Sequence record: PQ567651.1
Strand: one strand, 5' to 3'
From: Escherichia phage cardinal
Length of the DNA stretch: 64,000 nt
Below the pieces are notes generated by a model, which was given only the letters and a program-made list of their open reading frames with translations, searched no databases and was not told where the DNA came from. Shown here one piece after another: positions 3,367 to 37,309 of the stretch (position 1 is the first letter of the stretch; each line of letters opens with the position of its first letter). The position numbers and the translations under genes were made by a program.

Positions 3367-3390
3367 GATGTTAATCTCTTTTTCAGTGAG

Positions 3391-5648: not shown

Positions 5649-5674
5649 TGTGTTACCCTTTCTTTGATGGCCTG

Positions 5675-10259: not shown

Positions 10260-11294
10260 TTAAAACACACTTGCCAAAGTTGCACCATTGGTGATAGTTG
10301 GTTCCAGAACAATACGGAAAGAATCTTCTGGATCATCACTAAACACAACGATTTTACCGCCTGTAATAAGGTCTGCTTTCATTTTTGTCGCATTCAATGG
10401 AATTCGAGCATCTCCTTCATCATCAAAAACCACGTAAGAGCTATTAGCAAGGGCTTCTTTAGAGTCTGCATCACTTGGAGATGACAAGTACACGTCTAGT
10501 GTGCACGAACCACCTAAAAAGATTGCAGGTGTGAAGTTATGCCAACTAGATACCCAGCTAACTTTCTGAAGTTTTCCATTAATAACAACGCTGCTGATAT
10601 CCCATTTATTACCACCACCTAAAGAAACACCCATCATAGAGATGCATTCTTTAAAGGATAAATCAGGGTAGAAATTAAGTTCTTCTACTATACCTTGGAT
10701 CACATCAAAGGACAACTCTAAACTTACATCCCAAAGTCTTTGGAAATTATCAAAGTGTGCTTTGTTATCCAGGTTTTTATCTAAATAGTCAATCATAGTT
10801 TCTAGTGAGATTTTATCATAATTAAAATTATAAAACACACGACTAGGACGATTTAAAAAGAATTCAGAGATAAAACCACTGTTTTTAGTCAGAATAAACA
10901 GTTTATTACCACTGCCAGTACCATCTAACAAAGTGAGAAGTGCTTCTTGATCTTGTTTCTTCTCATACACTTTATCAAACTCGTCAAAAATAATCACTGC
11001 TTTGTCGGTGATCTTGCTAATAAGTTCAATGAAATTAGCATCGCTGTAGGCTTGAGTAACCATAATAGTTGGAATACCTTCTTCTACAAGGTCACGACTA
11101 ATGAGTTTGGCTAACATAGTTTTACCACTGCCCTTAGTTCCTGTCAGGAGCAAACCTGTATTTTTACCTTGTGCACTCCGGCGATGGAATGTACGAATAA
11201 CGTGATTTGCTCGTTTTTCTGTTTCACCATACAGAACATCCGGTACACCTGTTAGATTACCACGGCTTAAAAAAATAATTGCCAAGGGGATCAC
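10260..11294 (-). CDS. AAA-type P-loop ATPase; N-terminal ~30 codons lie in another frame (to ~11388)
   Basis: Walker A GTKGSGKT and Walker B IIFDEFDK; clear paralog of 26400..27560; N-terminal homology continues in a different frame up to an RBS-preceded ATG at 11388. Confidence 0.6.
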   Translation of the reverse strand: MIPLAIIFLSRGNLTGVPDVLYGETEKRANHVIRTFHRRSAQGKNTGLLLTGTKGSGKTMLAKLISRDLVEEGIPTIMVTQAYSDANFIELISKITDKAVIIFDEFDKVYEKKQDQEALLTLLDGTGSGNKLFILTKNSGFISEFFLNRPSRVFYNFNYDKISLETMIDYLDKNLDNKAHFDNFQRLWDVSLELSFDVIQGIVEELNFYPDLSFKECISMMGVSLGGGNKWDISSVVINGKLQKVSWVSSWHNFTPAIFLGGSCTLDVYLSSPSDADSKEALANSSYVVFDDEGDARIPLNATKMKADLITGGKIVVFSDDPEDSFRIVLEPTITNGATLASVF

Positions 11295-18721: not shown

Positions 18722-18722
18722 A

Positions 18723-21497
18723 ATGGCTAAGAAAGAGTTGAGCTTCACTCCGACAGAAGAGCAAACAGCTATTAAGGAGGCTTTTCCAGATCATCGCTTT
18801 TTAACTATCCAAGCTAAATCTGGATCAGGTAAAACGTCAACACTTTATTTGCTGGCTAACAGTACAGAAGATCGCATTCTTTACTTAGCTTTCAATAAAA
18901 GCATGGCAGAAGAAGCACGACGTAAGATGCCACCAAATGTAGAATGCCGTACATTGCATTCTATTTGCTATCAATTCCTGGATCATCGTTTACGTGCAAA
19001 ACTGTCACGACCAGAAGGACAGTATGTTAACGTTGCAGGTACAGGTAGCGAGATAGCAAAGAAATTTAAGATTAATAATCTTATTGATAAACGAGGGAAA
19101 ACACTTTTAACTCGTGCTATGATTGGTTTAATGATCAAGCAAACCGTAGGTAAGTTTGAATTTTCGGATGATCCTTTTATCAGCCGTAAACATTTTCCTA
19201 GTGTACATCTTGCAGATATTAAAAGAAAAGGTATTAACGAACACAAACTAATTACAGAAGTAGTTAAGTATGCAAAACAATTGTGGCGAGAGCGCATCGA
19301 TCCTAACACAGATACTTTGATGACGCATGACACCTATGTAAAATTGTTTGAATTGTCTGGTGCTGATCTTGGTTATGACATTATTTTTGGGGATGAATTC
19401 CAGGATGTTAACCCTGCATTCTTGTCTATTCTGCGAAATGCTAAATCTGCAAAACAAATTGTGGTAGTTGGCGATGAATTCCAATGTGTGTCGGAAAACA
19501 CGGTACTTAACACCGAGAATGGTCAGGTTACAATGAAAGACCTGCAAATCGGTGATAAGGTAGAGTCTTATTCTAATGGTAAAGTTACATTTAGAAAAGT
19601 AACAAATAAGACTTTATCTACACGTACAAAAGGTAGGAATATTATTACTGCTACAGGTAAAACTTTAGATATGACACATAACCATCGTATTTGGGCTTCA
19701 TCCTATGTTCTGAAAGATGACCAGATGGTGGTATACCTAATGTGGAGGAAAGATTTAGGTTTCCGAGTAGGGATCACTAACAAATTCGATGATAAAGAAG
19801 GTTTTTCTAAACTGGGGCAACGTACACGTTCTGAAAAAGCACAGAAATTATGGGTGTTGGACATTGTTGAAAATCGCGAAGCTGCTATGGAAAAAGAAAT
19901 GGCATACAGTTTACAATATGGCATTCCTACTTGTGTATTTGAAGCAAGTTCACGCGGCATTAATCAAGAAAGGATCAATAACATCTTTGAACAATTCGGA
20001 CAAAATGGTTTTAAACTTTTAGAGGATAAAGATTATCATTTTGCTTATCCACACTGGCACAGCATCAATTGTGCAGTAGATGAAAGAAAAATGCTAACAG
20101 TGACTTTGCGAGCACAAAGTTGTAAAGGAACACAAGTTAGTTTTGAGTGGACAGAAAGTGAAATGCCGATCTATTCTTCACTGATTAAAGCAGGTGTAAG
20201 CGTAAGTGCTGCTAAATTGGAAGGTCGTTACCGTGTACGTAAATATTTCAATTCTTATCGTGAAGCATTGAGTTTTGCACAAAAGATCCTTGAAATAGTT
20301 CCGTTTGCATCTTTAAAAGAATGCATGTCCTCTGTGAACAGTGCCAAATATAACTTAATTCCGGCAGCGGGTTTGTTTAAAGGCATGTCTGTGTTGGTAA
20401 AAGATGGTGATACTGTAACGGCAGAAGAGATTGTGGATATTGTAGATAGTGAGGGTATCTATTATGATATTGAAGTAGAGGATACTGCTAACTTCTTTGG
20501 CAATGAAATTCTTAGCCACAACTGCATTTATCAATTTAGAGGTAGCTCTAATATGATGATTGAAACAGCTAAGTATGGGGCAGAACTTCCATTAACTGCT
20601 TGCTTCCGTTTTGGCCCCAAAGTGGCAAACATTGCCAATATGATTTTAAGCGATAAAGAACCTTTGCGTCATCCTTTGGTTGGTAAAGGCTTTGATACTG
20701 TAGTAGGTAGCTACAAATCAGATGTTGTAGACTATACAAAACCTTACACTATCATCTTTCGCAAGAATTTAACCTTGCTTATGGAGGCAATGGATCGTAT
20801 TGCAGATGGGGAAGAAATTATTATTAACGTAGATACCAGGGATTTTATCTCTATGGTAGATAGTGTTAATGCTCTTCGGAGAGGAGATATTGAGAAAGTA
20901 AAACATGAAACTGTATTACCTTACGCAGACTGGGATGAATTTGTTGAGTGTGCAGAGGCTGATCCAGATGCTAAACGCTTGTTAAACATCGTAGTTTCTG
21001 GTAAGGCGAACACCATAGCACATACACTTAGAACGCACAGAAATTCTCCTACAGCAAAAGTCACACTTACTACAGCACACAAGTCTAAAGGTTTGGAGTG
21101 GGATCAGGTTATTGTTGCTAATGATTTTCCTTCCAACTATGATAAAAAGACTGGTGAATGGGTAGGACTAGAAGAGGCAGAGCGAAACCTACTGTATGTA
21201 GCGCATACCCGTTGTGTTAAATGCTTACAATGGAACACAACCGTACAGGAGATTATAGATATCAATCGTGTTGCAACAGAGAAAGTACCAACAAGCACCA
21301 CTTTACCGATCAATGGTATTAAACTTGGTGTATTTGGCGCTGGCACATCTCGAAAAACTGTAGAAAAATTTGTTGCAGATTCTTTTGATGGTAACTATAA
21401 TCATGCACAAGCATATGAGAGTTGGTTAGAGGAAGGTGAAGGTGATTTTTTAGGTGAAATAAATCTTTTACCAGACATAAATAAACTGGTAAACTAA
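18723..21497 (+). CDS. UvrD/PcrA-like SF1 DNA helicase containing an intein
   Basis: Walker A AKSGSGKTST, motif II FGDEFQDVN, motif III split as VVGDEFQ | intein | CIYQFRGSS; precursor 924 aa. Confidence 0.8.
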   Translation: MAKKELSFTPTEEQTAIKEAFPDHRFLTIQAKSGSGKTSTLYLLANSTEDRILYLAFNKSMAEEARRKMPPNVECRTLHSICYQFLDHRLRAKLSRPEGQYVNVAGTGSEIAKKFKINNLIDKRGKTLLTRAMIGLMIKQTVGKFEFSDDPFISRKHFPSVHLADIKRKGINEHKLITEVVKYAKQLWRERIDPNTDTLMTHDTYVKLFELSGADLGYDIIFGDEFQDVNPAFLSILRNAKSAKQIVVVGDEFQCVSENTVLNTENGQVTMKDLQIGDKVESYSNGKVTFRKVTNKTLSTRTKGRNIITATGKTLDMTHNHRIWASSYVLKDDQMVVYLMWRKDLGFRVGITNKFDDKEGFSKLGQRTRSEKAQKLWVLDIVENREAAMEKEMAYSLQYGIPTCVFEASSRGINQERINNIFEQFGQNGFKLLEDKDYHFAYPHWHSINCAVDERKMLTVTLRAQSCKGTQVSFEWTESEMPIYSSLIKAGVSVSAAKLEGRYRVRKYFNSYREALSFAQKILEIVPFASLKECMSSVNSAKYNLIPAAGLFKGMSVLVKDGDTVTAEEIVDIVDSEGIYYDIEVEDTANFFGNEILSHNCIYQFRGSSNMMIETAKYGAELPLTACFRFGPKVANIANMILSDKEPLRHPLVGKGFDTVVGSYKSDVVDYTKPYTIIFRKNLTLLMEAMDRIADGEEIIINVDTRDFISMVDSVNALRRGDIEKVKHETVLPYADWDEFVECAEADPDAKRLLNIVVSGKANTIAHTLRTHRNSPTAKVTLTTAHKSKGLEWDQVIVANDFPSNYDKKTGEWVGLEEAERNLLYVAHTRCVKCLQWNTTVQEIIDINRVATEKVPTSTTLPINGIKLGVFGAGTSRKTVEKFVADSFDGNYNHAQAYESWLEEGEGDFLGEINLLPDINKLVN
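19485..20522 (+). mobile_element. intein (346 aa) inserted in helicase motif III
   Basis: Begins with Cys (CVSENTVLNTENGQV...), ends ...EILSHN followed by +1 Cys; extein junction restores GDEFQ-CIYQFRG. Confidence 0.7.
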
Positions 21498-21507
21498 GGG
21501 GGTTAAA

Positions 21508-23832: not shown

Positions 23833-24690
23833 ATGACCCAAAAACTATATGAGGATGTAATCGGATTCCTCGAACAAACATCCGAAGAATTTACTCGTGA
23901 AAATGCAAACAAACCTGCAATGATTGTTAATACTCACCGAGATTTACTAGCAGGTATCCTAAGCAAGCACATGGCAATGACCCATATTTTACCTGAAGAT
24001 TTAGCAGAATGGCATAAAAGTGGGTATGGTCACATCCACGATTTAGATTATTTACTCTCACCTTTAACTAATTGTTGCCTGGTAAATTACCAAGATATGC
24101 TTGAGAACGGTTTCCGTATTGGTAATGCACATATTGAAAAACCAAAATCTATCGGTGTAGCGACTACTGTCCTAACTCAAATTATTCAAGCAGTAGCTTC
24201 TAGCCAATATGGTGGACAAACTTGTGCACATGTTGATACTGGGCTTAGTCAATACGTTAAAGCAAGTTTTAATAAAATATATGCCGATGTTGGCGATTAT
24301 GATATTGCTATGCGTATGGTAGATAAACAGGTCTATGATGCAATGCAAACTTTAATCTACCAGGTGAACACTCTAATGAGTGTAAATGGTCAGTCACCTT
24401 TTATAACAATTAGTTTAGGTTTGGATACCTCTGCTTTTGGTAGAATGATCACTAAAAACTACCTAATGGTGCACAAACAAGGATTGGGAAAAGATAGGGT
24501 AACTCCTGTGTTTCCTAAAGTTATCTTCTTCTTGGAAGATGGTGTTAACATGAAAGCTGGCGATCCAAACTATGATTTGAAGCAACTGGCAATGGAGTGT
24601 TGTGCTGAACGCATTTATCCTGATTTTATCTCTGTACCTTTAAACAAAGAAGTTACAGGATCTTCAGATGGTCGCGTCACAAGCATGGGT
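23833..24690 (+). CDS. nrdD: anaerobic ribonucleoside-triphosphate reductase, exon 1
   Basis: Aligns with E. coli NrdD from NENANK...RDLLAGI through GDPNYDLKQLAMEC to ...VTGS...MG; exon ends on U after the Gly codon. Confidence 0.85.
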
Positions 24691-24970
24691 AAACTATAAC
24701 TGCTCATGTAAAATCTGCCTAAACGGGGGAACTCTCAACGAGACAATCCCGTGCTAAACGTAACAGAACTCCCAACACAGAAGAAGGGGGGTACTATTAC
24801 GAAATGCCTAACGACTAGCTGTGATGAATGTAGCAGCGTAGGGTGTAAGCCTATGACACCCCAAATGGTAGACATGCTTTAAGCATGAAGATATAGTCTG
24901 ATCTGCATGGTGACATGCAGCAGCACGTAATGGTGCGGGAGTGGCCTTGCGAGCCACTTTGAACATAATG
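24691..24970 (+). mobile_element. group I self-splicing intron (ORF-less) in nrdD
   Basis: 280 nt separating two NrdD halves that sit in different frames; core element ctaaacgggggaactctc...gacaatcccgtgctaaa closely resembles the phage T4 td/nrd intron core; 5' exon ends in U and intron ends in G. Confidence 0.75.
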
Positions 24971-26399: not shown

Positions 26400-27560
26400 A
26401 TGTTTACAGTATTCGGCAATCAAATCTTTCTGCGTCAGAAATCTGGTACAGATATTGAAGAAATTCCAGCAGGAACTTTTGGTGTAGGTGTTACTCAAAG
26501 TGGTGAGTTCTTCCTGTATCCTAAAAACGATATGGAAGTCCCTTCAGTAACATACGGTGATACTGATGATAAATCAGAACGTATTATCAAAACGTTCCTT
26601 AGCCGCAAAGGTAAAAACACAGGTGTTCTCCTTGAAGGTACGAAAGGTAGCGGTAAAACTTTGCAAGCTAAAATGCTGTCTTCTGCTCTTCGTGAAATGG
26701 GTATTCCTACTATTTCTATCGGTAGTGCTTTTAATGGTGAAGGCTTTATCAATTTTATGTCTAAAATCACACAACCTGTGATGATTATGATCGATGAATT
26801 TGATAAACTGTATGCTGAAAAAGATGCACAAGATGGTTTGCTTACCCTGCTGGATGGTGTTGGTGGCTACGACAAACTGTTTGTATTGACTAAAAATGAT
26901 GGTTATGTATCAGAATTTTTGCGTAATCGTCCTAGCCGTATTTTCTACAGTTTTAGCTATAAGAAACTACCTAAAGCTACTATGGATGATTATCTGGCTA
27001 AAAATCTGGAGAACAAAGCCTTCTTACCAGACTTTGAAACGCTTTATAATCTCTCCGTGGATTTGAACTTTGATATTGTTCAGTCATTAGTAGAAGAACT
27101 TAACCGTTACCCTAATGACAAATTTTCTGATGCACTTGCACTAATGGGTATCAGTATTACTGAACACCGCTATGCTGCAAAAGAGGTTAAACTTCTGAAA
27201 GTTAACGGTGTAGATCGTACAGGAGATGTTTCGGCAGATACCGATATTGACGGTATGACAGCACAAGGTTTGTTTAGTGGTAATCGTTATGTTGTAGCTG
27301 TAGACCATAAACTAGGTGAAGAGCATCTTCCTGAAATGGAAGGGATCGTTACCGTAGAAGATAAAGATGAAGAAGGTGACTACTACTGGGGTGTAGACCG
27401 TATCTTGCTAACGTATGATGAAAAACACATCCGTACAATGGGTGGTGACGGTTATCACTTTATGTTCACCGATGATAAAGGTAACAACATTGAAGTTGTT
27501 ATTAAAAACAAAGAACGTAAAAACTACACAGAGTATGTGTTTGGTGGTCGTTCTTACTAA
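26400..27560 (+). CDS. AAA-type P-loop ATPase (paralog of 10260..11294)
   Basis: Walker A GTKGSGKT, Walker B MIMIDEFDK, LLTLLDG and LTKN blocks shared with the minus-strand paralog. Confidence 0.65.
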   Translation: MFTVFGNQIFLRQKSGTDIEEIPAGTFGVGVTQSGEFFLYPKNDMEVPSVTYGDTDDKSERIIKTFLSRKGKNTGVLLEGTKGSGKTLQAKMLSSALREMGIPTISIGSAFNGEGFINFMSKITQPVMIMIDEFDKLYAEKDAQDGLLTLLDGVGGYDKLFVLTKNDGYVSEFLRNRPSRIFYSFSYKKLPKATMDDYLAKNLENKAFLPDFETLYNLSVDLNFDIVQSLVEELNRYPNDKFSDALALMGISITEHRYAAKEVKLLKVNGVDRTGDVSADTDIDGMTAQGLFSGNRYVVAVDHKLGEEHLPEMEGIVTVEDKDEEGDYYWGVDRILLTYDEKHIRTMGGDGYHFMFTDDKGNNIEVVIKNKERKNYTEYVFGGRSY

Positions 27561-27566
27561 GTGATA

Positions 27567-27593
27567 AAAGGAGGCGAAAGCCTCCTTTATTTA
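27567..27593 (+). terminator. intrinsic terminator
   Basis: aaaggaggc-gaaa-gcctccttt followed by atttat. Confidence 0.5.
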
Positions 27594-27594
27594 T

Positions 27595-27798
27595 ATGGAG
27601 GGTATTATGGATCATTATTTTGTTTTTAAAGATAAAGTTGATACAGCAGGTGGTCACGTTGCTAAAAATGATCGTGACATTAAAGAAGTATTAGGAGATC
27701 TGATTAACATTTTAGAACAAAAAGAGTTGCTTTTAGATAAGGATATTGCTAGACTTCTTGGTGTGGGGATAAGTGATATACAAAGATTACCATTCTAA
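27595..27798 (+). CDS. hypothetical small protein
   Basis: 67-aa ORF. Confidence 0.4.
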   Translation: MEGIMDHYFVFKDKVDTAGGHVAKNDRDIKEVLGDLINILEQKELLLDKDIARLLGVGISDIQRLPF

Positions 27799-27967
27799 AG
27801 GGGAAGAAAATGCTTACAGATGATGAATATAAAGCTATCCAAGAAAAACTAACGGAGCTTGAAATTCTTGCTGTCAATATTAAAGATCAATCACATGCTG
27901 GAAAGTTACTACATCAAGAGATCAATAAAATTAAGCAGATGATATTCTTTTGGACGGAGGATTAAAA

Positions 27968-28624
27968 ATGACTGTTAAGCATATTTCTTTTGATGTATGG
28001 AACACTCTTATTACTGCTAATCCTTTGTATGCAGAAGAGCGCAACAAGGTAATTGCCGAGTATGCCTCTTGTTCTGAGGCAGAAGCAGCAACTGTATATA
28101 AAGAAGTAAAAACTCTCCTGGATTTAAGAGCAGAAAAAGGCATTTGTGGAACATCTAGAAATGCTTGGGAAACACTTTCTGCTCATTTGAACATTGATCT
28201 TGATAAAGTAGATGGGTTAAAAAGAGACTGTTTAGCAATGTTTATAAAACATCCTCCAATATTAAACCCTGAACTTTGCAAGAAGTTGGAAGAGCTAAGT
28301 TCAACCTATTCTTTGAGTATTAAAAGCAATACCAATTTTGTACCTGGTAGTTTCTTAGCTGTATATTCTGGCTTGACAAAATTACCATTTGACTTTATGC
28401 ATTTTTCTGATGAGTTTTGCTTGTGTAAACCAGATCCCAGGTTTTTTAAACTCTCTTTTGATGAAATGGTAACGTTTGATCTCGCACCAGAGGAGATCTT
28501 ACACGTTGGAGATAGTTTGATCTATGATGGAAAAGCTGTTGACATAGGGATGAAGTTCTGTCATATTATTAATCCAGAAGACTTGTTGGCTAAACTTAAA
28601 AAAGAGGAACTTATTAATGCGTAA
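27968..28624 (+). CDS. HAD-superfamily hydrolase-like protein with atypical motif I
   Basis: Motif I ISFDVWNTL (Asp nucleophile, but Trp where the second Asp is expected), motif III CKPDPRFF, motif IV HVGDSLIYDGKAVD. Confidence 0.55.
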   Translation: MTVKHISFDVWNTLITANPLYAEERNKVIAEYASCSEAEAATVYKEVKTLLDLRAEKGICGTSRNAWETLSAHLNIDLDKVDGLKRDCLAMFIKHPPILNPELCKKLEELSSTYSLSIKSNTNFVPGSFLAVYSGLTKLPFDFMHFSDEFCLCKPDPRFFKLSFDEMVTFDLAPEEILHVGDSLIYDGKAVDIGMKFCHIINPEDLLAKLKKEELINA

Positions 28625-29474
28625 TCAAATTCAACATTTTGCTAATATTTTTACTAACCTGAAGGAAGCAAAATTTAACATTGCAGATTATTCCAAGCTA
28701 AAGTTTGGTAGTAACCAGGCAGCAAAAAGAATGGGGCGCATTCTGGCTGAAAGTTTCTTTTCCAAGTATGAAGAACGACTGGTAAATGAAAGTTTTGTTG
28801 TTATTCCATCTCCATATAACTATGTGAAAAATGCAGCTACAGTGTTATCTGAACATTTTGTAGATCACCTCAACTACCTAATCTCTATCAAAGGAGGTAA
28901 AGCAGTGGAGTGGGATATCGTTCATCGTAAAGTGAGCTATATCAATGATTATGGATTTCTTAGCAAAGAAGATCGTAAGGCTTTGATCGATGGTGACACT
29001 TTCTCTATCAATCGTGATTTCTGGGGTAATAAAACTCTGATTTTCATTGATGATGTTAATATTACAGGAACGCACGAAGAAAAACTTATTGAAATTTTAG
29101 ACAAAGAAGGTGTTGAAAACGATACGTTTTTCCTGTACTTTGCAAAGTATGAAGGTACAGAAGCCAACACCGAAGCTGCACTTAACTTCAACTATATCAA
29201 TAACCTGGCAGCTTTTATTAAAATGATTAAGCAAGAAACTGATGCTAAATGTTTGGTTCGTCCTATTAAGTATCTAATGAGTCAAAGCGAAGTTGATTTT
29301 AAAATTGCACTTTCACAGCTTCCTTTGTATTATGTAGAACAACTGTTCTTTGGTTGCCTTGCAGAAGGCTACAATAACATTGAAAAATATAAAGAGAACT
29401 TTGATTTCCTGCGTCAATTTTTTGAAAGCAACATTATCAACAAATCTAATGTTAAAGGGGATTATTATGTCTAA
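28617..29474 (+). CDS. phosphoribosyltransferase (PRTase type I) domain protein
   Basis: PRPP-binding loop LIFIDDVNITGTH (hydrophobic-DD-xx-TG-T); overlaps the HAD gene stop, so probably co-translated. Confidence 0.55.
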   Translation: MRNQIQHFANIFTNLKEAKFNIADYSKLKFGSNQAAKRMGRILAESFFSKYEERLVNESFVVIPSPYNYVKNAATVLSEHFVDHLNYLISIKGGKAVEWDIVHRKVSYINDYGFLSKEDRKALIDGDTFSINRDFWGNKTLIFIDDVNITGTHEEKLIEILDKEGVENDTFFLYFAKYEGTEANTEAALNFNYINNLAAFIKMIKQETDAKCLVRPIKYLMSQSEVDFKIALSQLPLYYVEQLFFGCLAEGYNNIEKYKENFDFLRQFFESNIINKSNVKGDYYV

Positions 29475-30183
29475 TAAAGTAATGACTTTCGGAGATCCTA
29501 TCACCAATATTACAGAAAAAGATTTTGGGCGTGTAGCAACAGATAAAGATGGTGTCTTAAGAATTCGTGTACAAGGTATTACAGCACAGGATGAATATGC
29601 TGTGTATGTTTCAGGTCTTAACTATATTGATGATCGCATTACACAAAACTTTGCACTGATCGGTGGTGTAGAGAAAATGTATTGGGAAGATGAAATTGTA
29701 ACAAGTTATCCGGCAGGTATCATTGAGGTATACGGTGATCTTTTAGCAGCAGCCGAGAGAGGCGATATAGACGCTATAGCACACTGCTGTAACTGTTTTT
29801 GCACTATGGGTAGTGGTATTGCACCAAAAATTAAAAGCAAGTGGCCTGGTGCGTTTAAAGCAGATTGTGCCACTAAACGTGGTGATTATAAAAAATTAGG
29901 TACGTTTACCAAATATACAGAAAACAATTTGACAATTTATAATTTATATGGACAATATGGTTATAGTCGTCGTGAGGAAGGTAAGCGTGACCTGAATTAT
30001 GAAGCTATCTACAATGCGTTAGATAGTATGGGAGACGATGTTGTATCTTCAGGCGGTAAAGTTGTAGGTTTACCGATGCTGGGTTGTGGTTTGGCTGGAG
30101 GGTCTTGGAATATTGTAAAACTTATGATCGAAGAAACTCTAGTAAACAAAGGTTTAAATGTAATTGTTTACAAACTGAAATAA
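29467..30183 (+). CDS. macrodomain protein (TARG1/DarG-like), putative ADP-ribosyl hydrolase
   Basis: C-terminal ~150 aa align with human TARG1 as recalled: AIAHCCNCFCTMGSGIAPKIKSKW vs [23 protein letters not shown], and VGLPMLGCGLAGGSWNIVKLMIEETL...VIVYKL vs [26 protein letters not shown]...ITVYTL; N-terminal ~90 aa unassigned. Confidence 0.65.
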   Translation: MSNKVMTFGDPITNITEKDFGRVATDKDGVLRIRVQGITAQDEYAVYVSGLNYIDDRITQNFALIGGVEKMYWEDEIVTSYPAGIIEVYGDLLAAAERGDIDAIAHCCNCFCTMGSGIAPKIKSKWPGAFKADCATKRGDYKKLGTFTKYTENNLTIYNLYGQYGYSRREEGKRDLNYEAIYNALDSMGDDVVSSGGKVVGLPMLGCGLAGGSWNIVKLMIEETLVNKGLNVIVYKLK

Positions 30184-30192
30184 GGAGAAAGT

Positions 30193-30399
30193 ATGGCAGG
30201 TGTTTTAGCAGTATTAGGTTGTTTTATTGTTGTGTTTTTGATTGTGTTAATCCCTAGTTGGCTGCTGCTTTTAGCATACAACTATATGATTGACATTATC
30301 GGTTTAGACTGGCATCATGTTCCTGTAACGTTTTGGAGTGTAGTCTGTGTGACGTTCATTCTTGCGGTACTTCGTGGTATCTTTCAATCTAACAAATAA
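30193..30399 (+). CDS. hypothetical small membrane protein
   Basis: 68 aa, two hydrophobic helices. Confidence 0.4.
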   Translation: MAGVLAVLGCFIVVFLIVLIPSWLLLLAYNYMIDIIGLDWHHVPVTFWSVVCVTFILAVLRGIFQSNK

Positions 30400-30426
30400 G
30401 AGAGGATTTTTATATGCGTAAAGTAA

Positions 30427-30663
30427 ATGTTGAAGTGCTTGAAAAAATTTAGAAACACTCGTGATTGTACTATCGGCAAGGTTTACGAGGCTATTCTCCT
30501 TGAAGATGGAGATCAAGTTCCTGCCCCGTATCACGCCTTTAATGGTCAGATTAGCAAAGTGGAAGGTGGTATTGCTATTTGCTTTATTGATGACGTAGGT
30601 GATGCTGTAGCTTTCCCTATCATTAACAAAGAAGATAAACTTAAAATTACAGAACTGAACTAG
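30427..30663 (+). CDS. hypothetical small protein
   Basis: 78-aa ORF; start uncertain (a 12-codon ORF with a better RBS lies just upstream in another frame). Confidence 0.35.
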   Translation: MLKCLKKFRNTRDCTIGKVYEAILLEDGDQVPAPYHAFNGQISKVEGGIAICFIDDVGDAVAFPIINKEDKLKITELN

Positions 30664-30740
30664 TTGACTTTCTTTAAAAACAGTTTATAGTATAAGACAT
30701 AGAGCGGAGGATTGTCCTCCGCATTAAAGAGGAGAAAAGA

Positions 30741-31718
30741 ATGCAACTGGGTTTCCCAATTATTGATGTGGTTGTTTTAGTGGGTATTTTAGTCTTGTCG
30801 ATTTGTATTGACTTCTTTGGACACAGAGAAAACAAAGAAATTTCATTTAAATCGGCAGTTGGTTGGTCAATTTTCTGGATTGGAGTATCATTAGCCTACT
30901 ATGGTTTTGTATACTTCCAACACGGTGCTGATTTTGCGAGCTTGTTCTTGAGTGGGTATGTGTTGGAGAAATCTCTTTCTGTAGATAACTTAGTAGTATT
31001 TGTGGCAGTATTCGCAAGTTTTGGTATTAAAAGCACACACTTGCAACACAAGATTCTACTTTGGGGTATTGCAGGTGCGATTGTCTTCCGAGGTGTGTTT
31101 GTAGCAGTAGGCACTTACTTGTTGAGTTTGGGCTGGTATGTTAATATCTTCTTCGGTGCTGTCATCCTTTTCTGTGCGGCTAAAATGGTATTCGCTGGAG
31201 ATAATGATGCAGAAGTTGATTACTCTAAACACTGGGCTACTCGCATTGTTCGTAAGCTGTTCCCTGTATCTGATCAGATGGATGGTGAGAAGTTCTTCAC
31301 AATCAAAAATGGTGTTCGTGTAGCAACTCCGGCTCTGGTTTGTGTGTTTGTAATGGAAATGGTTGACGTAATCTTTGCAGTAGACTCTGTTCCAGCAGTA
31401 ATTGCAGTGACACAAGAACCTCTGCTTGTATTTTCTTCGATGCTCTGTGCAATCTTAGGTTTACGTGCTCTGTTCTTTGTTCTTAGTGTTGCACTGAAGT
31501 ATTTGGTTCATCTGGAGAAAGCAGTTATCGTAGTCCTGGTATTTGTGGGTGCAAAACTGATGTATCATCCGTTTGCAGAAACTCTGCACGCAAAAATGAG
31601 TTTCCTGCCAGCACACATTGATCCGACGATCAGTATGTATATTGTGTTAGGTACTCTTGGGTTGGGTGTTGTTGCAAGTTTAATCTTCCCTGAAAAAGAA
31701 GATCAGACTGTTGCTTAA
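30741..31718 (+). CDS. TerC-family integral membrane protein
   Basis: Multiple transmembrane helices and both TerC signature repeats: LEKSLSVDNLVVFVAVF and MVDVIFAVDSVPAVIAVT. Confidence 0.75.
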   Translation: MQLGFPIIDVVVLVGILVLSICIDFFGHRENKEISFKSAVGWSIFWIGVSLAYYGFVYFQHGADFASLFLSGYVLEKSLSVDNLVVFVAVFASFGIKSTHLQHKILLWGIAGAIVFRGVFVAVGTYLLSLGWYVNIFFGAVILFCAAKMVFAGDNDAEVDYSKHWATRIVRKLFPVSDQMDGEKFFTIKNGVRVATPALVCVFVMEMVDVIFAVDSVPAVIAVTQEPLLVFSSMLCAILGLRALFFVLSVALKYLVHLEKAVIVVLVFVGAKLMYHPFAETLHAKMSFLPAHIDPTISMYIVLGTLGLGVVASLIFPEKEDQTVA

Positions 31719-31724
31719 TTCATT

Positions 31725-31746
31725 AAGCCCCTTCGGGGGCTTTGTT
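31725..31746 (+). terminator. intrinsic terminator
   Basis: agcccc-ttcg-ggggct followed by ttgttg. Confidence 0.5.
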
Positions 31747-31950
31747 GAGGTGATCTGATGGTGGTTTTACGTGTTCTTTGGATTCTGTTTGAAAATATTT
31801 GTTTTGCTCTAGGGTTGTTTTGTTTGATTTTTATCTTGACAACATATATTGATAACCATACAATTACTATCAACAGGAACGGAGAACAGATGTATTGTTT
31901 CTCTAGGGATTTTAAAAATTGTGTTGAGACTTTAAATGAGAGGGTTACAA

Positions 31951-32541
31951 ATGAAAAACATTAAATCTTTTATTGTTGCAGTTGTTTTAGGTAGTGCATT
32001 GCTGGTAGGTTGTGATGATTCTGAAAATGTACAAAATCAACGTTACCAACAAACACCAAATCAGATGGTAGATGAACAATATGTAAATCAGCCTGCACCT
32101 CAAGTTGTTCAAGCAGCACCTGCACAACCTTCAACAGTTGTTGTGCAAGGAGGCGGCAGTGGTTCTTCTGGCGTAGGTGAGTTTGCTACAGGTATGCTTC
32201 TTGGTCATATGTTGAGTGGTAATAGTGGCGGTGGTGGTTATAGAGATGGCGGTAGCAATACAACAATTATTAATAACAACGCTGCTCCTACAACTAACAG
32301 TAAAGCATATACAACACAAAAACATAGTTTTTATGATAAACAAGGGAATACATATACAACAACTAAACAAAACACAATTAAGCAGCAAAGTGTACAAACG
32401 TATTCACGCCCATCAACAACAAAAGTGAATAGTGATTACTCTGCTCGTAAGTCTTACTCAAGCCCTATTAGCTCTTATAGTAAGTCTTCGAAAAGTTATT
32501 CTTCGTCGAAACGTAGTTTTAGTAGCTCACGTCGTCGTTAA
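31951..32541 (+). CDS. lipoprotein with low-complexity S/T/N-rich C-terminal region
   Basis: Signal peptide with lipobox LLVGC; remainder rich in Q/S/T/G with SYS..SK repeats. Confidence 0.55.
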   Translation: MKNIKSFIVAVVLGSALLVGCDDSENVQNQRYQQTPNQMVDEQYVNQPAPQVVQAAPAQPSTVVVQGGGSGSSGVGEFATGMLLGHMLSGNSGGGGYRDGGSNTTIINNNAAPTTNSKAYTTQKHSFYDKQGNTYTTTKQNTIKQQSVQTYSRPSTTKVNSDYSARKSYSSPISSYSKSSKSYSSSKRSFSSSRRR

Positions 32542-32576
32542 TAATTTAATACAGATTAAATAAGAAGGAGAAACAG

Positions 32577-33428
32577 ATGAAACTAGAAGTTGGTAAAGTG
32601 TATCGCCTGGAAGGTTGGATCTTTAATCAAGAAATTCTTGAGAAGAATAAAGATGGTTTTGAGTTTGTTGGTACTACCAAAGAAAGTATGCACGATGACG
32701 AATACTGTAAATTCGTTGGTAAAAATACAGGTCAAGAACAATTTTGCTTTAAAAGCGCAATCGGTGATTATGCTTCTGTAATGCCAACACCAGAAAAGAC
32801 TTCGAAGCAATATACTGTCTTTGGTGTAAAACTTGAAGAACTTGTAGAACACCCACGTTTTGAAGAGTTCAAGGTTGCTGCAATGCGCAAGCATTCTGAA
32901 ATTAAAATACATAATTTGTTTGATTTAGAAGATCGGTTTGATATCTTTATGTATGATCGCAGGGAAAAGCATTTTGATGCAACGACTTCAAAATTTGCTG
33001 CAACAGAGGATATTAAAATCCTTGATGTTGATACCTTTCTTGAGAGTGTATCGTTTGTATTCATCCATAAATACAAGAAACGTAGTGATCATAAACGTGT
33101 GAAAGGAACTCCTCGTAAGAAACGTACTGTAAACAAAGCAACTTTGCACTTCACTTCTGGTGATAAATATACTCTCAAAGGGTTTGAAAGTGTTTTGTAT
33201 GATGCTGGAACGGGTAATATCAAGTTTATTATTAAGGCAACCTACAAAGGTACGGTATTGCACGAAGAGGCTGTTACACTACCTGTATTCGATATCTCTC
33301 GTGTTGAGGTACGGGGTGTTAAAGAGTCCTTCGATCTGGATTTCTTAACTGCTAATACCACGGGTTATGTTAATCTGGAAGCAGATGGAGCATTTATTAC
33401 TACAAATTATTTAGATATGTTTGTTTAA
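32577..33428 (+). CDS. hypothetical protein
   Basis: 283-aa ORF with AAGGAG RBS. Confidence 0.5.
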   Translation: MKLEVGKVYRLEGWIFNQEILEKNKDGFEFVGTTKESMHDDEYCKFVGKNTGQEQFCFKSAIGDYASVMPTPEKTSKQYTVFGVKLEELVEHPRFEEFKVAAMRKHSEIKIHNLFDLEDRFDIFMYDRREKHFDATTSKFAATEDIKILDVDTFLESVSFVFIHKYKKRSDHKRVKGTPRKKRTVNKATLHFTSGDKYTLKGFESVLYDAGTGNIKFIIKATYKGTVLHEEAVTLPVFDISRVEVRGVKESFDLDFLTANTTGYVNLEADGAFITTNYLDMFV

Positions 33429-33496
33429 TACTTAACTTGTGTTATGATGGTGGTACAGAGGTATCACCATTTACTAAAGAATATGGAGGAAATTGA

Positions 33497-34600
33497 ATGT
33501 CCAGTCCTTTTATCAGTGCCGTAAAAAGCAAACCGTCTGAAATGAGTGTATTCACGGCAACAACAGAAAAAAGTAAGTCTTTGTTTGCTCCAAGTGCTAT
33601 GGATGCAAGCCCTGTATATGCCCCTGCTGTTGCACGCCCTGTACAAATGCTGCCTCCAATGTCTCGTGAAGAGATTGAACAGGTTGGTGCTGATGCAGGA
33701 CTTACTCTTCGTAACCTTAATGCTGAAGTGCTTAAACACCAGCGTTCATCTCAGGGAGATGAAATGAGTGAACGTTTAACTGCGCTTATTAAGCAAGCAA
33801 AGCAACTTGATCCTAACTCTATTAAACAATCTAAAGGTTTAGGTAAACTAGTTAAGAAAGTTTTAGGTATGAAAGAAGATTTGTTTGGAGAATTTGACAC
33901 CATCAATAACCGTATTGAAGGTTTGGTAAAGACACTCCAAACAGACTTGAAAAAAGAAGAAGATTCTTTACGATATCTGCAACGTTTAGAGGAAGCTATT
34001 GCAAAATATGCTCTTAGCTTAAACAGGGATATAGAGCTTCTAACAGCTACTTATGAAAAAGAAGAAGTTCGCCTTAATACACTACCTGAAAATGAGGTAG
34101 AAGAGCGTCAACGTACTCGTGATACTATGGATCTGCTTGAAATTCGTATTGCAGACCTGAAAGCCTTACGCTTACTATGTGTTCAGATGGGGCCACGTGT
34201 ACAAAGTATGCAGAAAGTATCTGCAAGTTTGATGCGATCAGCCCGTAATATTGTGAATAATGTTATTCCTGCTTACTCTGCAAACTTTTCTATGTATATT
34301 GAAAGTCTACGCCAGAAGAAAGCAGCCGATACACAGAACAATGTACTGAATGAATTTAATGCTGCTATTGCAATGGGTAGTGATCTGGCTGCACAAAACC
34401 AGATTGAAGCTACACAACTTGCTAATCGTCAAGTATTGGATATTGAAACATTGCGTCGTGATCAAGAAAACTTAGTTAAAATGTTGGAAGAAACTAACCG
34501 AATCAACACTGAAGCCCGTGCTGCTCGTATTGATTACATTCAAGAAGTGCAGTCTCTTGAAGATGGTATGATTCAAACTGTTAAACGTGGTCTACTTTAA
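33497..34600 (+). CDS. TelA-like (toxic anion resistance / KlaB family) protein
   Basis: 367 aa, coiled-coil-rich; C-terminal blocks VIPAYSANFSMYIESLRQKKA, NEFNAAIAMGSDL and IDIETLRRDQENLVKMLEE match the TelA family pattern (assigned from memory). Confidence 0.55.
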   Translation: MSSPFISAVKSKPSEMSVFTATTEKSKSLFAPSAMDASPVYAPAVARPVQMLPPMSREEIEQVGADAGLTLRNLNAEVLKHQRSSQGDEMSERLTALIKQAKQLDPNSIKQSKGLGKLVKKVLGMKEDLFGEFDTINNRIEGLVKTLQTDLKKEEDSLRYLQRLEEAIAKYALSLNRDIELLTATYEKEEVRLNTLPENEVEERQRTRDTMDLLEIRIADLKALRLLCVQMGPRVQSMQKVSASLMRSARNIVNNVIPAYSANFSMYIESLRQKKAADTQNNVLNEFNAAIAMGSDLAAQNQIEATQLANRQVLDIETLRRDQENLVKMLEETNRINTEARAARIDYIQEVQSLEDGMIQTVKRGLL

Positions 34601-34613
34601 GGAGAAATATATT

Positions 34614-34820
34614 ATGAATATTAAAATTTACAAACTGTCTGGTTCTATGATTGCTGTTCAGTATGACAATGAAGATCGTTATGTTCTCCTCCAGGATGCT
34701 TGGTTAGATGATCCTAATGTATTCACTGTCCTGCGAGAACTACGTGCTGTCTATACCTATTCTTCTAAAGATGGTTTTGACAATTCAACAATGGAATTGG
34801 TAAAAGAGGAGAATGTGTAA
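34614..34820 (+). CDS. hypothetical small protein
   Basis: AAGGAG RBS then ATG (MNIKIYKL...). Confidence 0.4.
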   Translation: MNIKIYKLSGSMIAVQYDNEDRYVLLQDAWLDDPNVFTVLRELRAVYTYSSKDGFDNSTMELVKEENV

Positions 34821-35020
34821 TGAGTAAAGATATTCACTTAACTCGTGAAGAATTGCAAACCATTATGGAAGATGCTTTCATTGATGGTTGGAAACAAGGT
34901 CAAGAATCAGATTGGTATGATGCCGAAGATTTTTTGTATTATCATATGACTGCACCTGTAGACGAGCAAACACACTCTGAAACAACTTTGGCTTTAATTG
35001 ATCTTAAGGCTGGTGTATAA
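34820..35020 (+). CDS. hypothetical small acidic protein
   Basis: 66-aa ORF, translationally coupled. Confidence 0.4.
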   Translation: MSKDIHLTREELQTIMEDAFIDGWKQGQESDWYDAEDFLYYHMTAPVDEQTHSETTLALIDLKAGV

Positions 35021-35583
35021 TGGGGTGTTTTAGTTTCTTGTGCAAAGAGTCTGGTAATGCTGCTCTTTCTACCTCTTTCGATGGCTCTCCTTGCTACCTA
35101 TTTCTTTTGAAAGGTGGTAAGGTTGTCGAAGAGATGTATGGGAATTATGATAGCTATGGTAGTGTTTTCTCTAACGAAGAAGATAAACATGGCAATCGTA
35201 AAAGATTCAAGTGGTCTATGCCTTGGGAAGAAGTTTGTAATTTGATGTTCTCTTCCGATCTTGGAGATGGGATTGCTCTGGTATTAGAAGAGCACTTTAC
35301 AGGCGAGATCCCAACAGAAAGATCTGAAGAAGATCCTAACCAGGGTTGGGGTGATGGGGAAGAAGATCCAGATTGCTTCTTCAGCACTGAAAATAATAAA
35401 TTTAAACGTGTTGACAATCCTTACCACAAAGTGCATAATACTTGCATTGAGACAGAAGAAGACTCAAAGCTAGAAATTGAAGATGATTTAGTTGTAACTA
35501 TCTCTTTAAACGAGTTGCAAAAGATCACCAGAGAGGCTTTCTATTTAGGCTTGAGAGCAGGTAAAGGAGAAGACAGTGCTTAA
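35020..35583 (+). CDS. hypothetical protein
   Basis: 187-aa ORF, acidic. Confidence 0.45.
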   Translation: MGCFSFLCKESGNAALSTSFDGSPCYLFLLKGGKVVEEMYGNYDSYGSVFSNEEDKHGNRKRFKWSMPWEEVCNLMFSSDLGDGIALVLEEHFTGEIPTERSEEDPNQGWGDGEEDPDCFFSTENNKFKRVDNPYHKVHNTCIETEEDSKLEIEDDLVVTISLNELQKITREAFYLGLRAGKGEDSA

Positions 35584-35845
35584 ATTTAATATCAAAGACG
35601 ACAAATCAGATGAACCTAAATGTTTTGGAGAACTTGACGTAGGTGATACATTTGTATATTATGTTGCCTATCAAGATTCTGGTTTAGATACGTTCAGAAA
35701 CTTAGTGTTTATTAAAGTTAATACAAACCAAGCAATGTGTCTGAACGGTTCGCAAAGAGGTCAAATTAGCTGTATTTCGTATGATACAGAAATGGTAGAA
35801 GTGGATTTAGAAGTTACTAACATTACACTCAGAAAGGAGAAATAA
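35576..35845 (+). CDS. hypothetical protein
   Basis: 89-aa ORF. Confidence 0.4.
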   Translation: MLKFNIKDDKSDEPKCFGELDVGDTFVYYVAYQDSGLDTFRNLVFIKVNTNQAMCLNGSQRGQISCISYDTEMVEVDLEVTNITLRKEK

Positions 35846-35846
35846 T

Positions 35847-36640
35847 ATGTCCAATAAAATCAGTCTTAAAAAACGTCAAGAAACTCTTACCGTATCTCTG
35901 CGTAAGAAAAAGATTAACGATGTTGTTCTTCGTGTCGGTAGCGCCTTAGATATTTCGGGTAGTATGTGTGAGCTGTATCGTGATGGCACTGTTAGTGATT
36001 TTGTAGGTAAGCTGCTGCCGTTTGGTATGAAGTTTGATGATAATGCACAGATTGACATGTGGGCTTTCAATAGTTCTTCTTTTGAACTGCCTCCTGCAAC
36101 GGCTGATGTATATGATGATTATGTCGGCTCTTGTATGTCTAACGTTTGCATCAATGGTGGTACAGCTTATGCTCCAGTAATGCAAGAGATCTATGATACA
36201 TACTTCGGTAGTGTACCTATGAAAAATATTACACGCGAAGTCGTTGAGTATGAAGAAGTTCCGGCTAAGGGTTTCCTTGCTAAACTAACTGGTAAAAAGA
36301 ACTTGTAGAAGTAACACGTACTGTTGTAGAACAGGTTGTAGATACTGATGCACAAGTTGATCGTACTCCTGCAATGATTTTCTTCCAAACTGACGGGGAG
36401 AACATGGATACTTCAGCAGTACGTAGCTTACTGAACAAACACCGCAATACGCCTGTTTACTGGTTTATGGTTGGTGTAGGTAATGCAAACTTTAAATTCC
36501 TGAAAGACTTGGCAAAGGAATACGATAATGTTGACTTTATCGGTATTGCAGATTTGTCCTTGTCTGATGAAGAACTTTACGATAAACTGTTATCCGAAGA
36601 GTTTGGTGAGTGGGTTAAAAAATTTGGAGCAAAAGCGTAA
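35847..36640 (+). CDS. vWA-domain protein (TerY-like), reading frame interrupted by a -1 shift near 36291-36300
   Basis: MIDAS motif DISGSM in frame 0 (35847..36308); the vWA domain continues as IFFQTDGENMD in the -1 frame (36296..36640); junction at ggT AAA AAG. Confidence 0.55.
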
Positions 36641-36712
36641 AAAACGCTTGACTTTGTAGAAAAGATTAGTAAAATAGACAACGTAAATTAACAACAAAGG
36701 AGATAATAAATT

Positions 36713-37309
36713 ATGACTCAGAAAATTTCCCTGAAAAAAGGTTCTAGCGAAAAAGTTTCTCTGAAAAAGATCGCACCAGCACTGAAACGCATTCGTCTGG
36801 AATTCTCTTGGAAATCTAACGAAAAACTGGATCTGGATGTTAGTGCTCTGATTTGCCGACACAATGCATCTGGTCTGCCGGAACTGTTGTCTCCTCGTCA
36901 CCTGGTGTGCTACGCGCAGAAATTTGATCCTGAACGTTCTACTTTTGCAGGTGAAGATGTTCGTGATGGTGTAGGACAGATGGAGCAGATCGATGTTACT
37001 CTGGATAATATCTCTGCTGAAGCACAGGAAATTGCATTCGTAATTACTATTGATGACGAAACGGGTAAGAAACGCCTTGGTCACGCTACCGAAGGTTTCC
37101 TTAAAATCTTCGATGATGAACGTAACGTTGAACTGCTGGATTTTGACTTCTTGGCTCCAGAACTTGCAGGTAATACCATTTGCCACGTTGCCTCCCTGGT
37201 GCGGGAAGATAATGAATGGAAACTGAAAGCATATGGTGTAGGTAAAGCTGGACTTGACATTTATGATGTAGTTAAAGCGTTTGGCGCTGGTGACGATTGG
37301 TTCGAGTAA
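36713..37309 (+). CDS. TerD-domain protein
   Basis: ISLKKG...VSLKK...LEFSWKS...LDLDVSALI...GEDVRDGVG..EQIDV...IAFVITI....FDFLAPELAGNT matches TerD/TerZ family blocks. Confidence 0.75.
   Translation: MTQKISLKKGSSEKVSLKKIAPALKRIRLEFSWKSNEKLDLDVSALICRHNASGLPELLSPRHLVCYAQKFDPERSTFAGEDVRDGVGQMEQIDVTLDNISAEAQEIAFVITIDDETGKKRLGHATEGFLKIFDDERNVELLDFDFLAPELAGNTICHVASLVREDNEWKLKAYGVGKAGLDIYDVVKAFGAGDDWFE

What the first reader, a model, noticed from the sequence alone, without database searches (positions are those of the whole stretch)
36285..36305. vWA gene interrupted at an A AAA AAG-like site: programmed -1 frameshift, pseudogene or sequencing error
The TerY-like vWA domain starts in frame 0 (MIDAS motif DISGSM) and continues in the -1 frame (IFFQTDGENMD). 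The frames can be joined at ggT AAA AAG, which is one base away from the canonical X XXY YYZ slippery heptamer A AAA AAG used for -1 frameshifting in dnaX. This could give two products, a truncated 153-aa form and a full vWA protein.
Basis: partly seen in the sequence, partly recalled or inferred. Interest (0 to 1): 0.55.

Follow-up and report, generated by a model that had tools for sequence, protein, structure and literature searches.

The report
One-base gap splits phage vWA gene
A phage gene looks split into two reading frames only because this one assembly has five A's where every related phage has six, so it is most likely a sequencing slip or a fresh knockout, not a programmed frameshift.

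Summary
A vWA-TerF-like gene starts in frame 0 (35847..36308, 153 aa) and continues in the -1 frame (36296..36640), joined at GGT AAA AAG.

The programmed-frameshift reading is not supported:
- The window is a phi92-like phage (Justusliebigvirus).
- All 54 GenBank relatives carry one more base in the 200 nt around the site, and every copy read directly has GGT AAA AAA GAA (A6).
- Every annotation inspected shows one 264-aa ORF.
- Adding one A restores the commonest allele exactly (306 contigs).
- The 153-aa product exists on one contig, a raw k-mer (Logan) assembly of run SRR33749226.
- That assembly has two more private single-A changes in A/T runs (30442, 11269). Both break genes that are intact in every relative inspected.
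- Its private base substitutions show strong purifying selection (120 synonymous, 35 non-synonymous).
- Two unrelated noisy Logan assemblies show the same A6-to-A5 change among many homopolymer deletions.
- No stimulatory hairpin, Shine-Dalgarno-like element or Rfam frameshift element is present.
- More distant homologues lack the A-run.

Best explanation: a homopolymer-length artefact (about 0.68). A real recent null or leaky mutation is about 0.28, and programmed recoding about 0.02. Interest is low.

The parts
35847..36308 (+). N-terminal fragment of the vWA-TerF-like gene (homologue of phi92 gp173). It is 153 codons plus a TAG stop in frame 0 and contains the DISGS MIDAS motif.
   Evidence: Pfam PF10138, profile positions 3-98 of 200, E=1.2e-15; identical to residues 1-151 of the intact 264-aa allele P0065
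36294..36298 (+). A5 run. Every relative read directly has A6 here (GGT AAA AAA GAA). This is the site of the private one-base deletion that causes the frame break.
   Evidence: alignments (nine different relatives, all A6); all 54 GenBank records span one base more than the 200-nt query; 2 IMG/VR contigs and 1 metagenome contig have the A6 length
36293..36299 (+). T_AAA_AAG pseudo-heptamer. The A_AAG tetramer is in register, but the first position does not fit X_XXY_YYZ. It is an accidental by-product of the deletion, not a conserved signal.
   Evidence: no downstream structure beyond shuffles; no Rfam frameshift element at the site; AAAAAG is at chance frequency
36296..36640 (+). C-terminal part of the same vWA gene in the -1 frame: 114 codons plus TAA, containing FFQTDGEN. 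It has no independent ribosome-binding signal. Gene callers report only an 88-aa ORF from ATG 36374.
   Evidence: Pfam PF10138, profile positions 87-194 of 200, E=1.7e-21; protein identical to residues 152-264 of P0065
30442..30447 (+). Second private homopolymer change in the same assembly: A6 where relatives have A5. It frameshifts the 82-codon phi92 gp183 homologue after codon 11. The rest is readable from ATG 30427 (78 aa).
11269..11275 (-). Third private homopolymer change: A7 on the + strand (T7 in the coding strand) where all 55 relatives are one base shorter. It splits the 375-aa AAA ATPase (phi92 gp221 / UAB_1 gp228) into 43-aa and 344-aa ORFs.
36713..37309 (+). Context: intact TerD-domain gene immediately downstream.
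   Evidence: Pfam PF02342, E=4e-28
33497..34600 (+). Context: intact TelA-family gene upstream. Together with TerC (30741..31718), it places the vWA gene in a Ter-like accessory module.
   Evidence: Pfam PF05816 and PF03741; phi92 annotation

Best explanation
The vWA gene is not recoded. It is the ordinary single 264-codon vWA-TerF-like gene of phi92-like phages, written in this assembly with one A too few in an A6 run (GGT AAA AAA GAA became GGT AAA AAG AA). The near-slippery T AAA AAG is simply what an A6 run followed by G looks like after losing one A.

The most likely cause is a homopolymer-length error carried into an unpolished read assembly (inferred). The real phage would then make one full-length protein by normal translation.

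Shown:
- the break is a one-base deletion in a homopolymer;
- it is private to this assembly;
- it is accompanied by two other private A/T-run frameshifts;
- it is not conserved.

Inferred:
- the cause is sequencing rather than mutation.
For: 1. Phi92, PATM, ECGD1, JLBYU50 and UAB_1 all annotate one 795-nt ORF. Nine relatives read base by base have A6. All 54 GenBank records cover the 200-nt query with one extra base. The IMG/VR and metagenome contigs are also A6.

2. The exact 153-aa product is on a single contig, Logan SRR33749226_0, which is 100% identical to the window. The 15 listed members of its 76-member 90% cluster are otherwise all 264 aa, on hundreds of contigs.

3. The repaired protein equals the commonest allele, P0065 (306 contigs), with 0 differences. 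The downstream frame therefore shows no decay.

4. The same assembly has two further private single-A changes in A/T runs, at 30442 and 11269. Each breaks a gene that is intact in every relative whose annotation or sequence was inspected, and 50 of 54 and 55 of 55 relatives are one base shorter across those sites. The four exceptions at 30442 carry an extra intergenic T and an intact gene.

5. Its 158 private substitutions are 120 synonymous, 35 non-synonymous and 3 intergenic. Selection has filtered the substitutions but not the indels.

6. Two independent strains in other Logan assemblies (L023, L024, about 2% different from the window) show the same A6-to-A5 change among many other one-base homopolymer deletions.

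7. Logan contigs are k=31 graph assemblies that drop only singleton k-mers and use no quality values or read polishing (PMC12424806).
Against: - The sequencing platform of SRR33749226 is unknown. A 72-kb contig from a k=31 graph suggests accurate reads, and with Illumina reads a majority A5 call would be a real allele.
- The error density (3 per 64 kb) is far lower than in the clearly noisy assemblies L023 and L024.
- Two of the three changes are insertions, not the deletions seen in those assemblies.
- Two of the three frameshifts lie near N-termini with alternative in-frame starts. That is what tolerated real mutations would look like.
- Two of the three lie in the Ter-like module.
Confidence: 0.68

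Rival explanations
1. This is a real, very recent one-base deletion, giving a null or leaky allele (pseudogene) of a dispensable Ter-like accessory gene in this phage stock. The main product is the 153-aa truncated protein. A small fraction of ribosomes slipping -1 at A_AAG would restore the exact wild-type protein, giving unprogrammed, 'savior-indel'-type leakiness.
For: - The deletion is in the reads' majority path in the Logan assembly, and the window extends 5.7 kb beyond that contig, so the window is not that contig alone.
- The long, clean contig suggests accurate reads.
- The other two private frameshifts are N-terminal with alternative starts.
- Two of the three lie in the Ter-like module.
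- An independent phage (KKP 3954) has the homologous gene truncated by a frameshift at a different position, which hints that the gene is dispensable.
- A_AAG is the most shift-prone tetramer in E. coli (PMC4066793; PMC5009743).
- Unprogrammed suppression of one-base deletions can reach 1-10% in aggregate (PMC10861913).
Against: - Three private frameshifts in 64 kb, in genes intact in about 54 relatives, is unusual for a lineage whose substitutions show strong purifying selection.
- The downstream frame is 100% identical in protein to the commonest allele, so any mutation must be extremely young.
- The same A6-to-A5 call recurs as an evident error in noisy assemblies.
- Without a stimulator, tetramer motifs shift only about 0.15%, against a 0.11% background.
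Confidence: 0.28
2. This is a programmed -1 ribosomal frameshift of the dnaX type at T_AAA_AAG, giving a fixed ratio of a 153-aa form and a full-length vWA protein.
For: - A_AAG is in the correct register, and the slip would give an uninterrupted vWA domain.
- The host is E. coli, whose single tRNA-Lys is shift-prone on AAG (PMC5009743).
Against: - The arrangement is not conserved in any of 54 relatives or in hundreds of contigs.
- More distant homologues read GKTE, without an A-run.
- The heptamer's first position does not fit.
- The hairpin downstream is weak: -7.2 kcal/mol, z = -0.5, with 53 of 200 shuffles folding as well. Longer folds give z = -0.6 to -1.0.
- There is no GGAG, GAGG or AGGA within 20 nt upstream.
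- No Rfam frameshift element lies at the site.
- The motif occurs at chance frequency.
Confidence: 0.02
3. Transcriptional slippage by RNA polymerase on the A-run adds an A to part of the mRNAs and so restores the frame.
For: The frame break sits in a homopolymer, and adding one A to the mRNA would restore the gene.
Against: Efficient slippage by bacterial RNA polymerase is documented for runs of 9 A or T (PMC5009743). The run here is 5 A. The arrangement is also not conserved.
Confidence: 0.01

Closest known systems
Phi92 gp173 and its orthologues in Justusliebigvirus (vWA-TerF-like protein, PF10138)
   Same: About 98-99% nucleotide identity and the same neighbours (TelA, four small genes, vWA, TerD). 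The repaired protein is identical to the commonest allele, which is the one carried by UAB_1, muut and PATM.
   Different: The window copy lacks one A of the A6 run, so it reads as 153-aa and 88/114-aa fragments.
E. coli dnaX programmed -1 frameshift (A_AAA_AAG, upstream Shine-Dalgarno-like element, downstream stem-loop)
   Same: There are lysine codons AAA AAG with A_AAG in register and a nearby zero-frame stop after the site.
   Different: The first base of the heptamer is T. There is no Shine-Dalgarno-like element, no significant stem-loop and no conservation. In dnaX the shifted product is the short one, whereas here the shifted product would be the long one (PMC5009743).
Homopolymer-length errors in unpolished or long-read assemblies
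   Same: The changes are a single base gained or lost in A/T runs of 5-7. They are private to one assembly, there are several per contig, they break otherwise conserved ORFs, and the same site is hit in two other noisy assemblies.
   Different: The density is low (3 in 64 kb) and insertions are mixed with a deletion. The platform is not known.
'Savior' or leaky frameshift alleles compensated by low-level ribosomal slippage (for example herpes simplex thymidine kinase G-run mutants; Atkins et al. 2016)
   Same: An indel in a homopolymer sits next to a shift-prone site, and a slip there would restore the wild-type protein.
   Different: There is no evidence that the allele is real, selected, or that any compensation matters.

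Membership tests
vWA-TerF-like domain protein (Pfam PF10138) | Significant match to the family profile across the whole domain | tested here: met
   Fragment 1 scores 58.7 bits (profile 3-98) and fragment 2 scores 77.7 bits (profile 87-194). Intact phi92 gp173 scores 134.5 bits. The curated cut-off is 29.4.
vWA-TerF-like domain protein (Pfam PF10138) | MIDAS metal-site residues (DxSxS, then T and D in later loops) | tested here: met
   DISGS is in fragment 1 and QTDGE in fragment 2, read directly. Metal binding itself is not testable here.
vWA-TerF-like domain protein (Pfam PF10138) | Encoded as one uninterrupted ORF | tested here: not met
   The window copy is split by a one-base deletion. 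Of 63 homologue clusters at 28-99% identity, 62 are single full-length proteins.
Programmed -1 ribosomal frameshift site (dnaX / IS type) | X_XXY_YYZ heptamer in the zero frame | tested here: not met
   The site is T_AAA_AAG. Only the A_AAG tetramer fits.
Programmed -1 ribosomal frameshift site (dnaX / IS type) | Stimulatory element: a downstream stem-loop or pseudoknot 5-9 nt away, or an upstream Shine-Dalgarno-like sequence | tested here: not met
   The best hairpin is -7.2 kcal/mol with z = -0.5. The 81-nt and 121-nt folds give z = -0.6 and -1.0. There is no GGAG, GAGG or AGGA in the 20 nt upstream. There is no Rfam frameshift element at the site.
Programmed -1 ribosomal frameshift site (dnaX / IS type) | Two-frame gene organisation and shift site conserved among homologues | tested here: not met
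   None of the 54 GenBank relatives, 3 other contigs or listed cluster members share it. Distant homologues have GKTE in place of GKKE.
Programmed -1 ribosomal frameshift site (dnaX / IS type) | Both products made in a set ratio | not testable with these tools
   This needs a reporter assay or proteomics.
Homopolymer-length sequencing or assembly artefact | A one-base gain or loss inside a homopolymer, private to one assembly | tested here: met
   A6 became A5. The exact 153-aa product is on 1 contig only.
Homopolymer-length sequencing or assembly artefact | Other such changes in the same assembly, indifferent to coding constraint | tested here: met
   Changes at 30442 (A5 to A6) and 11269 (A6 to A7) both break conserved genes, while private substitutions are 120 synonymous to 35 non-synonymous.
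Homopolymer-length sequencing or assembly artefact | The same site is miscalled in independent data | tested here: met
   L023 and L024 are different strains and different runs. Both have the same A6-to-A5 change among many homopolymer deletions.
Homopolymer-length sequencing or assembly artefact | Raw reads disagree with the assembly, or show mixed or strand-biased run lengths | not testable with these tools

The most novel reading that the evidence does not exclude
The three A/T-run frameshifts are real and recent in this phage stock. They knock down two Ter-like module genes (vWA and the gp183 homologue) and an AAA ATPase. The vWA allele is kept leaky by unprogrammed -1 slippage at T_AAA_AAG, which regenerates the exact wild-type protein at a low dose. 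That would be a 'savior indel' tuning of an accessory stress module during propagation on a particular host.
Probability: 0.05. Interest if true: 0.35.

Novelty: not a real feature. Interest (0 to 1): 0.07.

Why it matters
It matters mainly as quality control. Split genes at short A-runs in raw Logan-type assemblies should not be read as recoding signals unless the split is conserved in relatives.

If the deletion proved real, it would be an ordinary loss-of-function allele of a dispensable Ter-like accessory gene. It would be of modest interest for what that module does for phi92-like phages.

Tried and rejected
Checks on the programmed-frameshift reading, all negative:
- Downstream stimulatory structure: three folds, none better than shuffles.
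- Known frameshift elements: the permissive Rfam scan of 35800-36800 gave only chance-level hits, none at the site. The HIV_FE hit at 36720-36768 is on the opposite strand, E=6.9, far below the gathering score.
- Over-representation of the motif: AAAAAG is at chance frequency.

Searches for the A5 allele elsewhere:
- IMG/VR, JGI metagenomes and GTDB genomes yielded only A6 copies or nothing.
- The run accession was not found in any paper.

Other checks:
- The third shared indel, a G-run at 24786, was tested as a possible error. It is a real polymorphism shared with phages alia and VEcB, inside the nrdD group I intron.
- The private-indel census in the variable early region (1-12 kb) found further private indels at 1472, 2635, 6096 and 6333. 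Where they could be placed, they lie in intergenic DNA or a doubtful tiny ORF. They were compared with only 3-5 relatives, so they are uninformative.
- The ratio of private substitutions to indels could not separate an artefact from a very recent mutation. Only the reads can.
- The 88-aa ORF2 as an independent gene was rejected. It is called separately only where the gene is broken or cut by a contig end.

Full report
**What is in the sequence**

The window carries an ORF at 35847..36308 (+). It encodes 153 aa, contains ALDISGSM and ends ...LTGKKNL*. The -1 frame has a TAA at 36293-36295 and is then open from 36296 to 36640. It reads KELVEVTRTVVEQ...AMIFFQTDGENMD...GAKA*.

Both pieces hit Pfam PF10138 (vWA-TerF-like) on complementary halves of the profile, positions 3-98 and 87-194 of 200. 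The neighbours are TelA (33497..34600), TerD (36713..37309) and, further upstream, TerC (30741..31718).

The junction is GGT AAA AAG, that is T_AAA_AAG at 36293-36299. A -1 slip of tRNA-Lys from AAG to AAA would continue with GAA CTT GTA... The hexamer AAAAAG is unremarkable: 104 copies in the window against 96 +/- 10 in shuffles.

**What the relatives show**

The window is a phi92-like myovirus (Justusliebigvirus, Stephanstirmvirinae), 98-99% identical to 54 GenBank records across this gene.

- In phi92 (gp173), PATM, ECGD1, JLBYU50 and UAB_1 the gene is annotated as one 795-nt ORF of 264 aa.
- Base-by-base alignments of nine different relatives all read GGT AAA AAA GAA. The window has A5 where they have A6.
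- All 54 records cover a 200-nt query centred on the site with exactly one extra base.
- Two IMG/VR contigs and one metagenome contig that match the flanks also have the A6 length. No bacterial genome contig matches.
- A search of 5.8 billion protein clusters found 63 homologue clusters at 28-99% identity. Sixty-two are full-length single proteins. The exception, from phage KKP 3954, is truncated by a frameshift about 20 codons upstream of the window's site.
- More distant homologues read GKTE instead of GKKE, so the A-run is not a family feature.

A programmed frameshift would require the two-frame organisation to be conserved. It is not.

**Where the A5 allele comes from**

The exact 153-aa product occurs on a single contig among 153 billion gene positions. 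That contig is Logan assembly SRR33749226_0 (71,993 nt), which is 100% identical to the window over every stretch fetched, including 20,237 nt in one piece. The 15 listed members of its 76-member 90% cluster are otherwise all 264 aa, on hundreds of contigs.

Inserting one A gives a protein with zero differences from P0065, the commonest allele, which is found on 306 contigs. The part now out of frame therefore shows no decay.

Logan contigs are k=31 de Bruijn graph assemblies. They discard only singleton k-mers and use no base qualities or read polishing (PMC12424806).

**Other breaks in the same assembly**

I listed every indel between the window and UAB_1, phi92, alia, VEcB, A150 and PD211. 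In the 43 kb covered by all six, the window has 158 substitutions shared with none of them. They split 120 synonymous, 35 non-synonymous and 3 intergenic, which is the signature of purifying selection.

The same 43 kb holds exactly two private indels, both single-A changes in A-runs inside genes:
- the vWA site;
- 30442-30447 (A5 to A6), which stops the 82-codon gp183 homologue after 12 codons.

Fifty of the 54 relatives are one base shorter across the gp183 site. The four with equal length have an extra T in the upstream intergenic T-run and an intact gene.

A third change lies at 11269-11275 (A6 to A7 on the + strand). It splits the 375-aa AAA ATPase (phi92 gp221) into 43-aa and 344-aa ORFs. 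All 55 relatives are one base shorter there.

A G-run difference at 24786 turned out to be a shared polymorphism inside the nrdD group I intron. Indels that distinguish the relatives from one another in the conserved region are intergenic.

So selection has filtered the window's substitutions, but its private indels all hit coding sequence. That is expected of artefacts or of mutations only a few generations old.

**Independent miscalls at the same site**

The 88-aa ORF2 product is called as a separate gene on seven contigs:
- One is the window's own contig.
- Three are simply cut by a contig end.
- One has a 630-nt inversion.
- Two are informative: SRR32346278 and SRR32346273. They are different strains, about 2% different from the window. 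Both carry the same A6-to-A5 change, along with many other one-base deletions in homopolymers within about 2 kb.

In such data this A6 run is evidently a recurrent target of homopolymer under-calling.

**Could ribosomes or polymerase repair it?**

Nothing marks the site as a recoding signal:
- The RNA downstream folds no better than shuffles. The 43-nt hairpin is -7.2 kcal/mol with z = -0.5, and the 81-nt and 121-nt folds give z = -0.6 and -1.0.
- There is no Shine-Dalgarno-like sequence in the 20 nt upstream.
- No Rfam frameshift family matches at the site.

In E. coli, A_AAG is the most shift-prone tetramer, but only with a strong stimulator (5.6% with the IS3 pseudoknot). Without one, tetramer motifs average 0.15% against a 0.11% background (PMC4066793). 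Efficient bacterial transcriptional slippage needs runs of about 9 A or T (PMC5009743).

If the deletion were real, a trace of wild-type protein could arise by unprogrammed slippage. This is the 'savior indel' situation of Atkins et al.. Aggregate suppression of one-base deletions can reach 1-10% (PMC10861913). That would be leakiness, not a programmed mechanism.

**Weighing artefact against real mutation**

For an artefact:
- the unpolished assembly;
- three private A/T-run changes that ignore coding constraint;
- a perfect downstream frame;
- recurrence of the same miscall elsewhere.

For a real allele:
- the platform is unknown;
- the contig is long and otherwise clean;
- two of the three changes are insertions;
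- two frameshifts lie near N-termini with usable alternative starts;
- two lie in the Ter-like module;
- the window extends 5,674 nt beyond the Logan contig's start, so it is not that contig alone.

I put artefact at about 0.68, a real recent null or leaky allele at about 0.28, a programmed frameshift at about 0.02 and transcriptional slippage at about 0.01. Only the reads or Sanger sequencing can separate the first two.

**Verdict**

The frame break is real in the text of the sequence, but it is not a biological recoding signal. The gene is the known vWA-TerF-like gene of phi92-like phages. Interest is low.

Noticed in passing
window 30415-30663 (A-run 30442-30447): The phi92 gp183 homologue, just upstream of TerC, is frameshifted by a private extra A. 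The annotated start now stops after 12 codons, and a 78-aa ORF from ATG 30427 keeps the rest.
   Followed up: yes
window 10260-11400, minus strand (run 11269-11275): The AAA ATPase (phi92 gp221, 375 aa) is split into 43-aa and 344-aa ORFs by a private extra base in a T6 run. All 55 relatives are one base shorter.
   Followed up: yes
window 24645-24920: There is a group I intron (Rfam RF00028, 72 bits) inside the anaerobic ribonucleotide reductase gene nrdD. A G5/G6 run inside it is a polymorphism shared with phages alia and VEcB. Some relatives match this stretch in two pieces spanning about 690 nt, which implies an extra insert there; one such record annotates an endonuclease.
   Followed up: partly
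window about 18700-21500 (L032 1-1071; L033 1-1463): The 924-aa UvrD-like helicase carries weak Pfam hits to Hint and Intein_splicing, which suggests an intein.
   Followed up: no
window 37305 (end of the TerD gene): There is a 12-nt indel (AGTAATACGTCA) at the TerD stop codon relative to UAB_1. Several independent assemblies share it, so it is a natural tandem-duplication polymorphism.
   Followed up: partly
window 32918: There is an 18-nt in-frame tandem-repeat difference (GTTTGATTTAGAAGATCG) relative to phi92, in the gp179 homologue.
   Followed up: no
L021 (Logan SRR31708054_197) 1383-2012: A 630-nt segment covering the 3' half of vWA and the 5' end of TerD is inverted relative to all other genomes. 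It is either a graph misassembly or a real inversion.
   Followed up: no
P0047 (Escherichia phage KKP 3954): The homologous vWA gene of a more distant phage is truncated to 158 aa by a frameshift about 20 codons upstream of the window's site. This could be a second sequencing error or a sign that the gene is dispensable.
   Followed up: partly
window about 26400-37300: There is a Ter-like accessory module: AAA ATPase, HAD-type hydrolase, PRTase_3, a Macro-like phosphatase, TerC, TelA, vWA-TerF-like and TerD. From my own recall, not checked against a paper here, this resembles the Ter-associated biosynthetic modules described for bacterial ter clusters.
   Followed up: partly
window 1-5674: The window starts 5,674 nt upstream of the first base of Logan contig SRR33749226_0, although it is identical to that contig wherever compared. 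Its source is therefore a longer or joined sequence. Further private indels at 1472, 2635, 6096 and 6333 (T6 to T8) lie in this variable early-gene region.
   Followed up: partly
GenBank MG065639 and related records: Several records labelled 'Campylobacter phage' (UNVERIFIED) are Justusliebigvirus genomes about 98% identical to this E. coli phage, so they are probably mislabelled.
   Followed up: no
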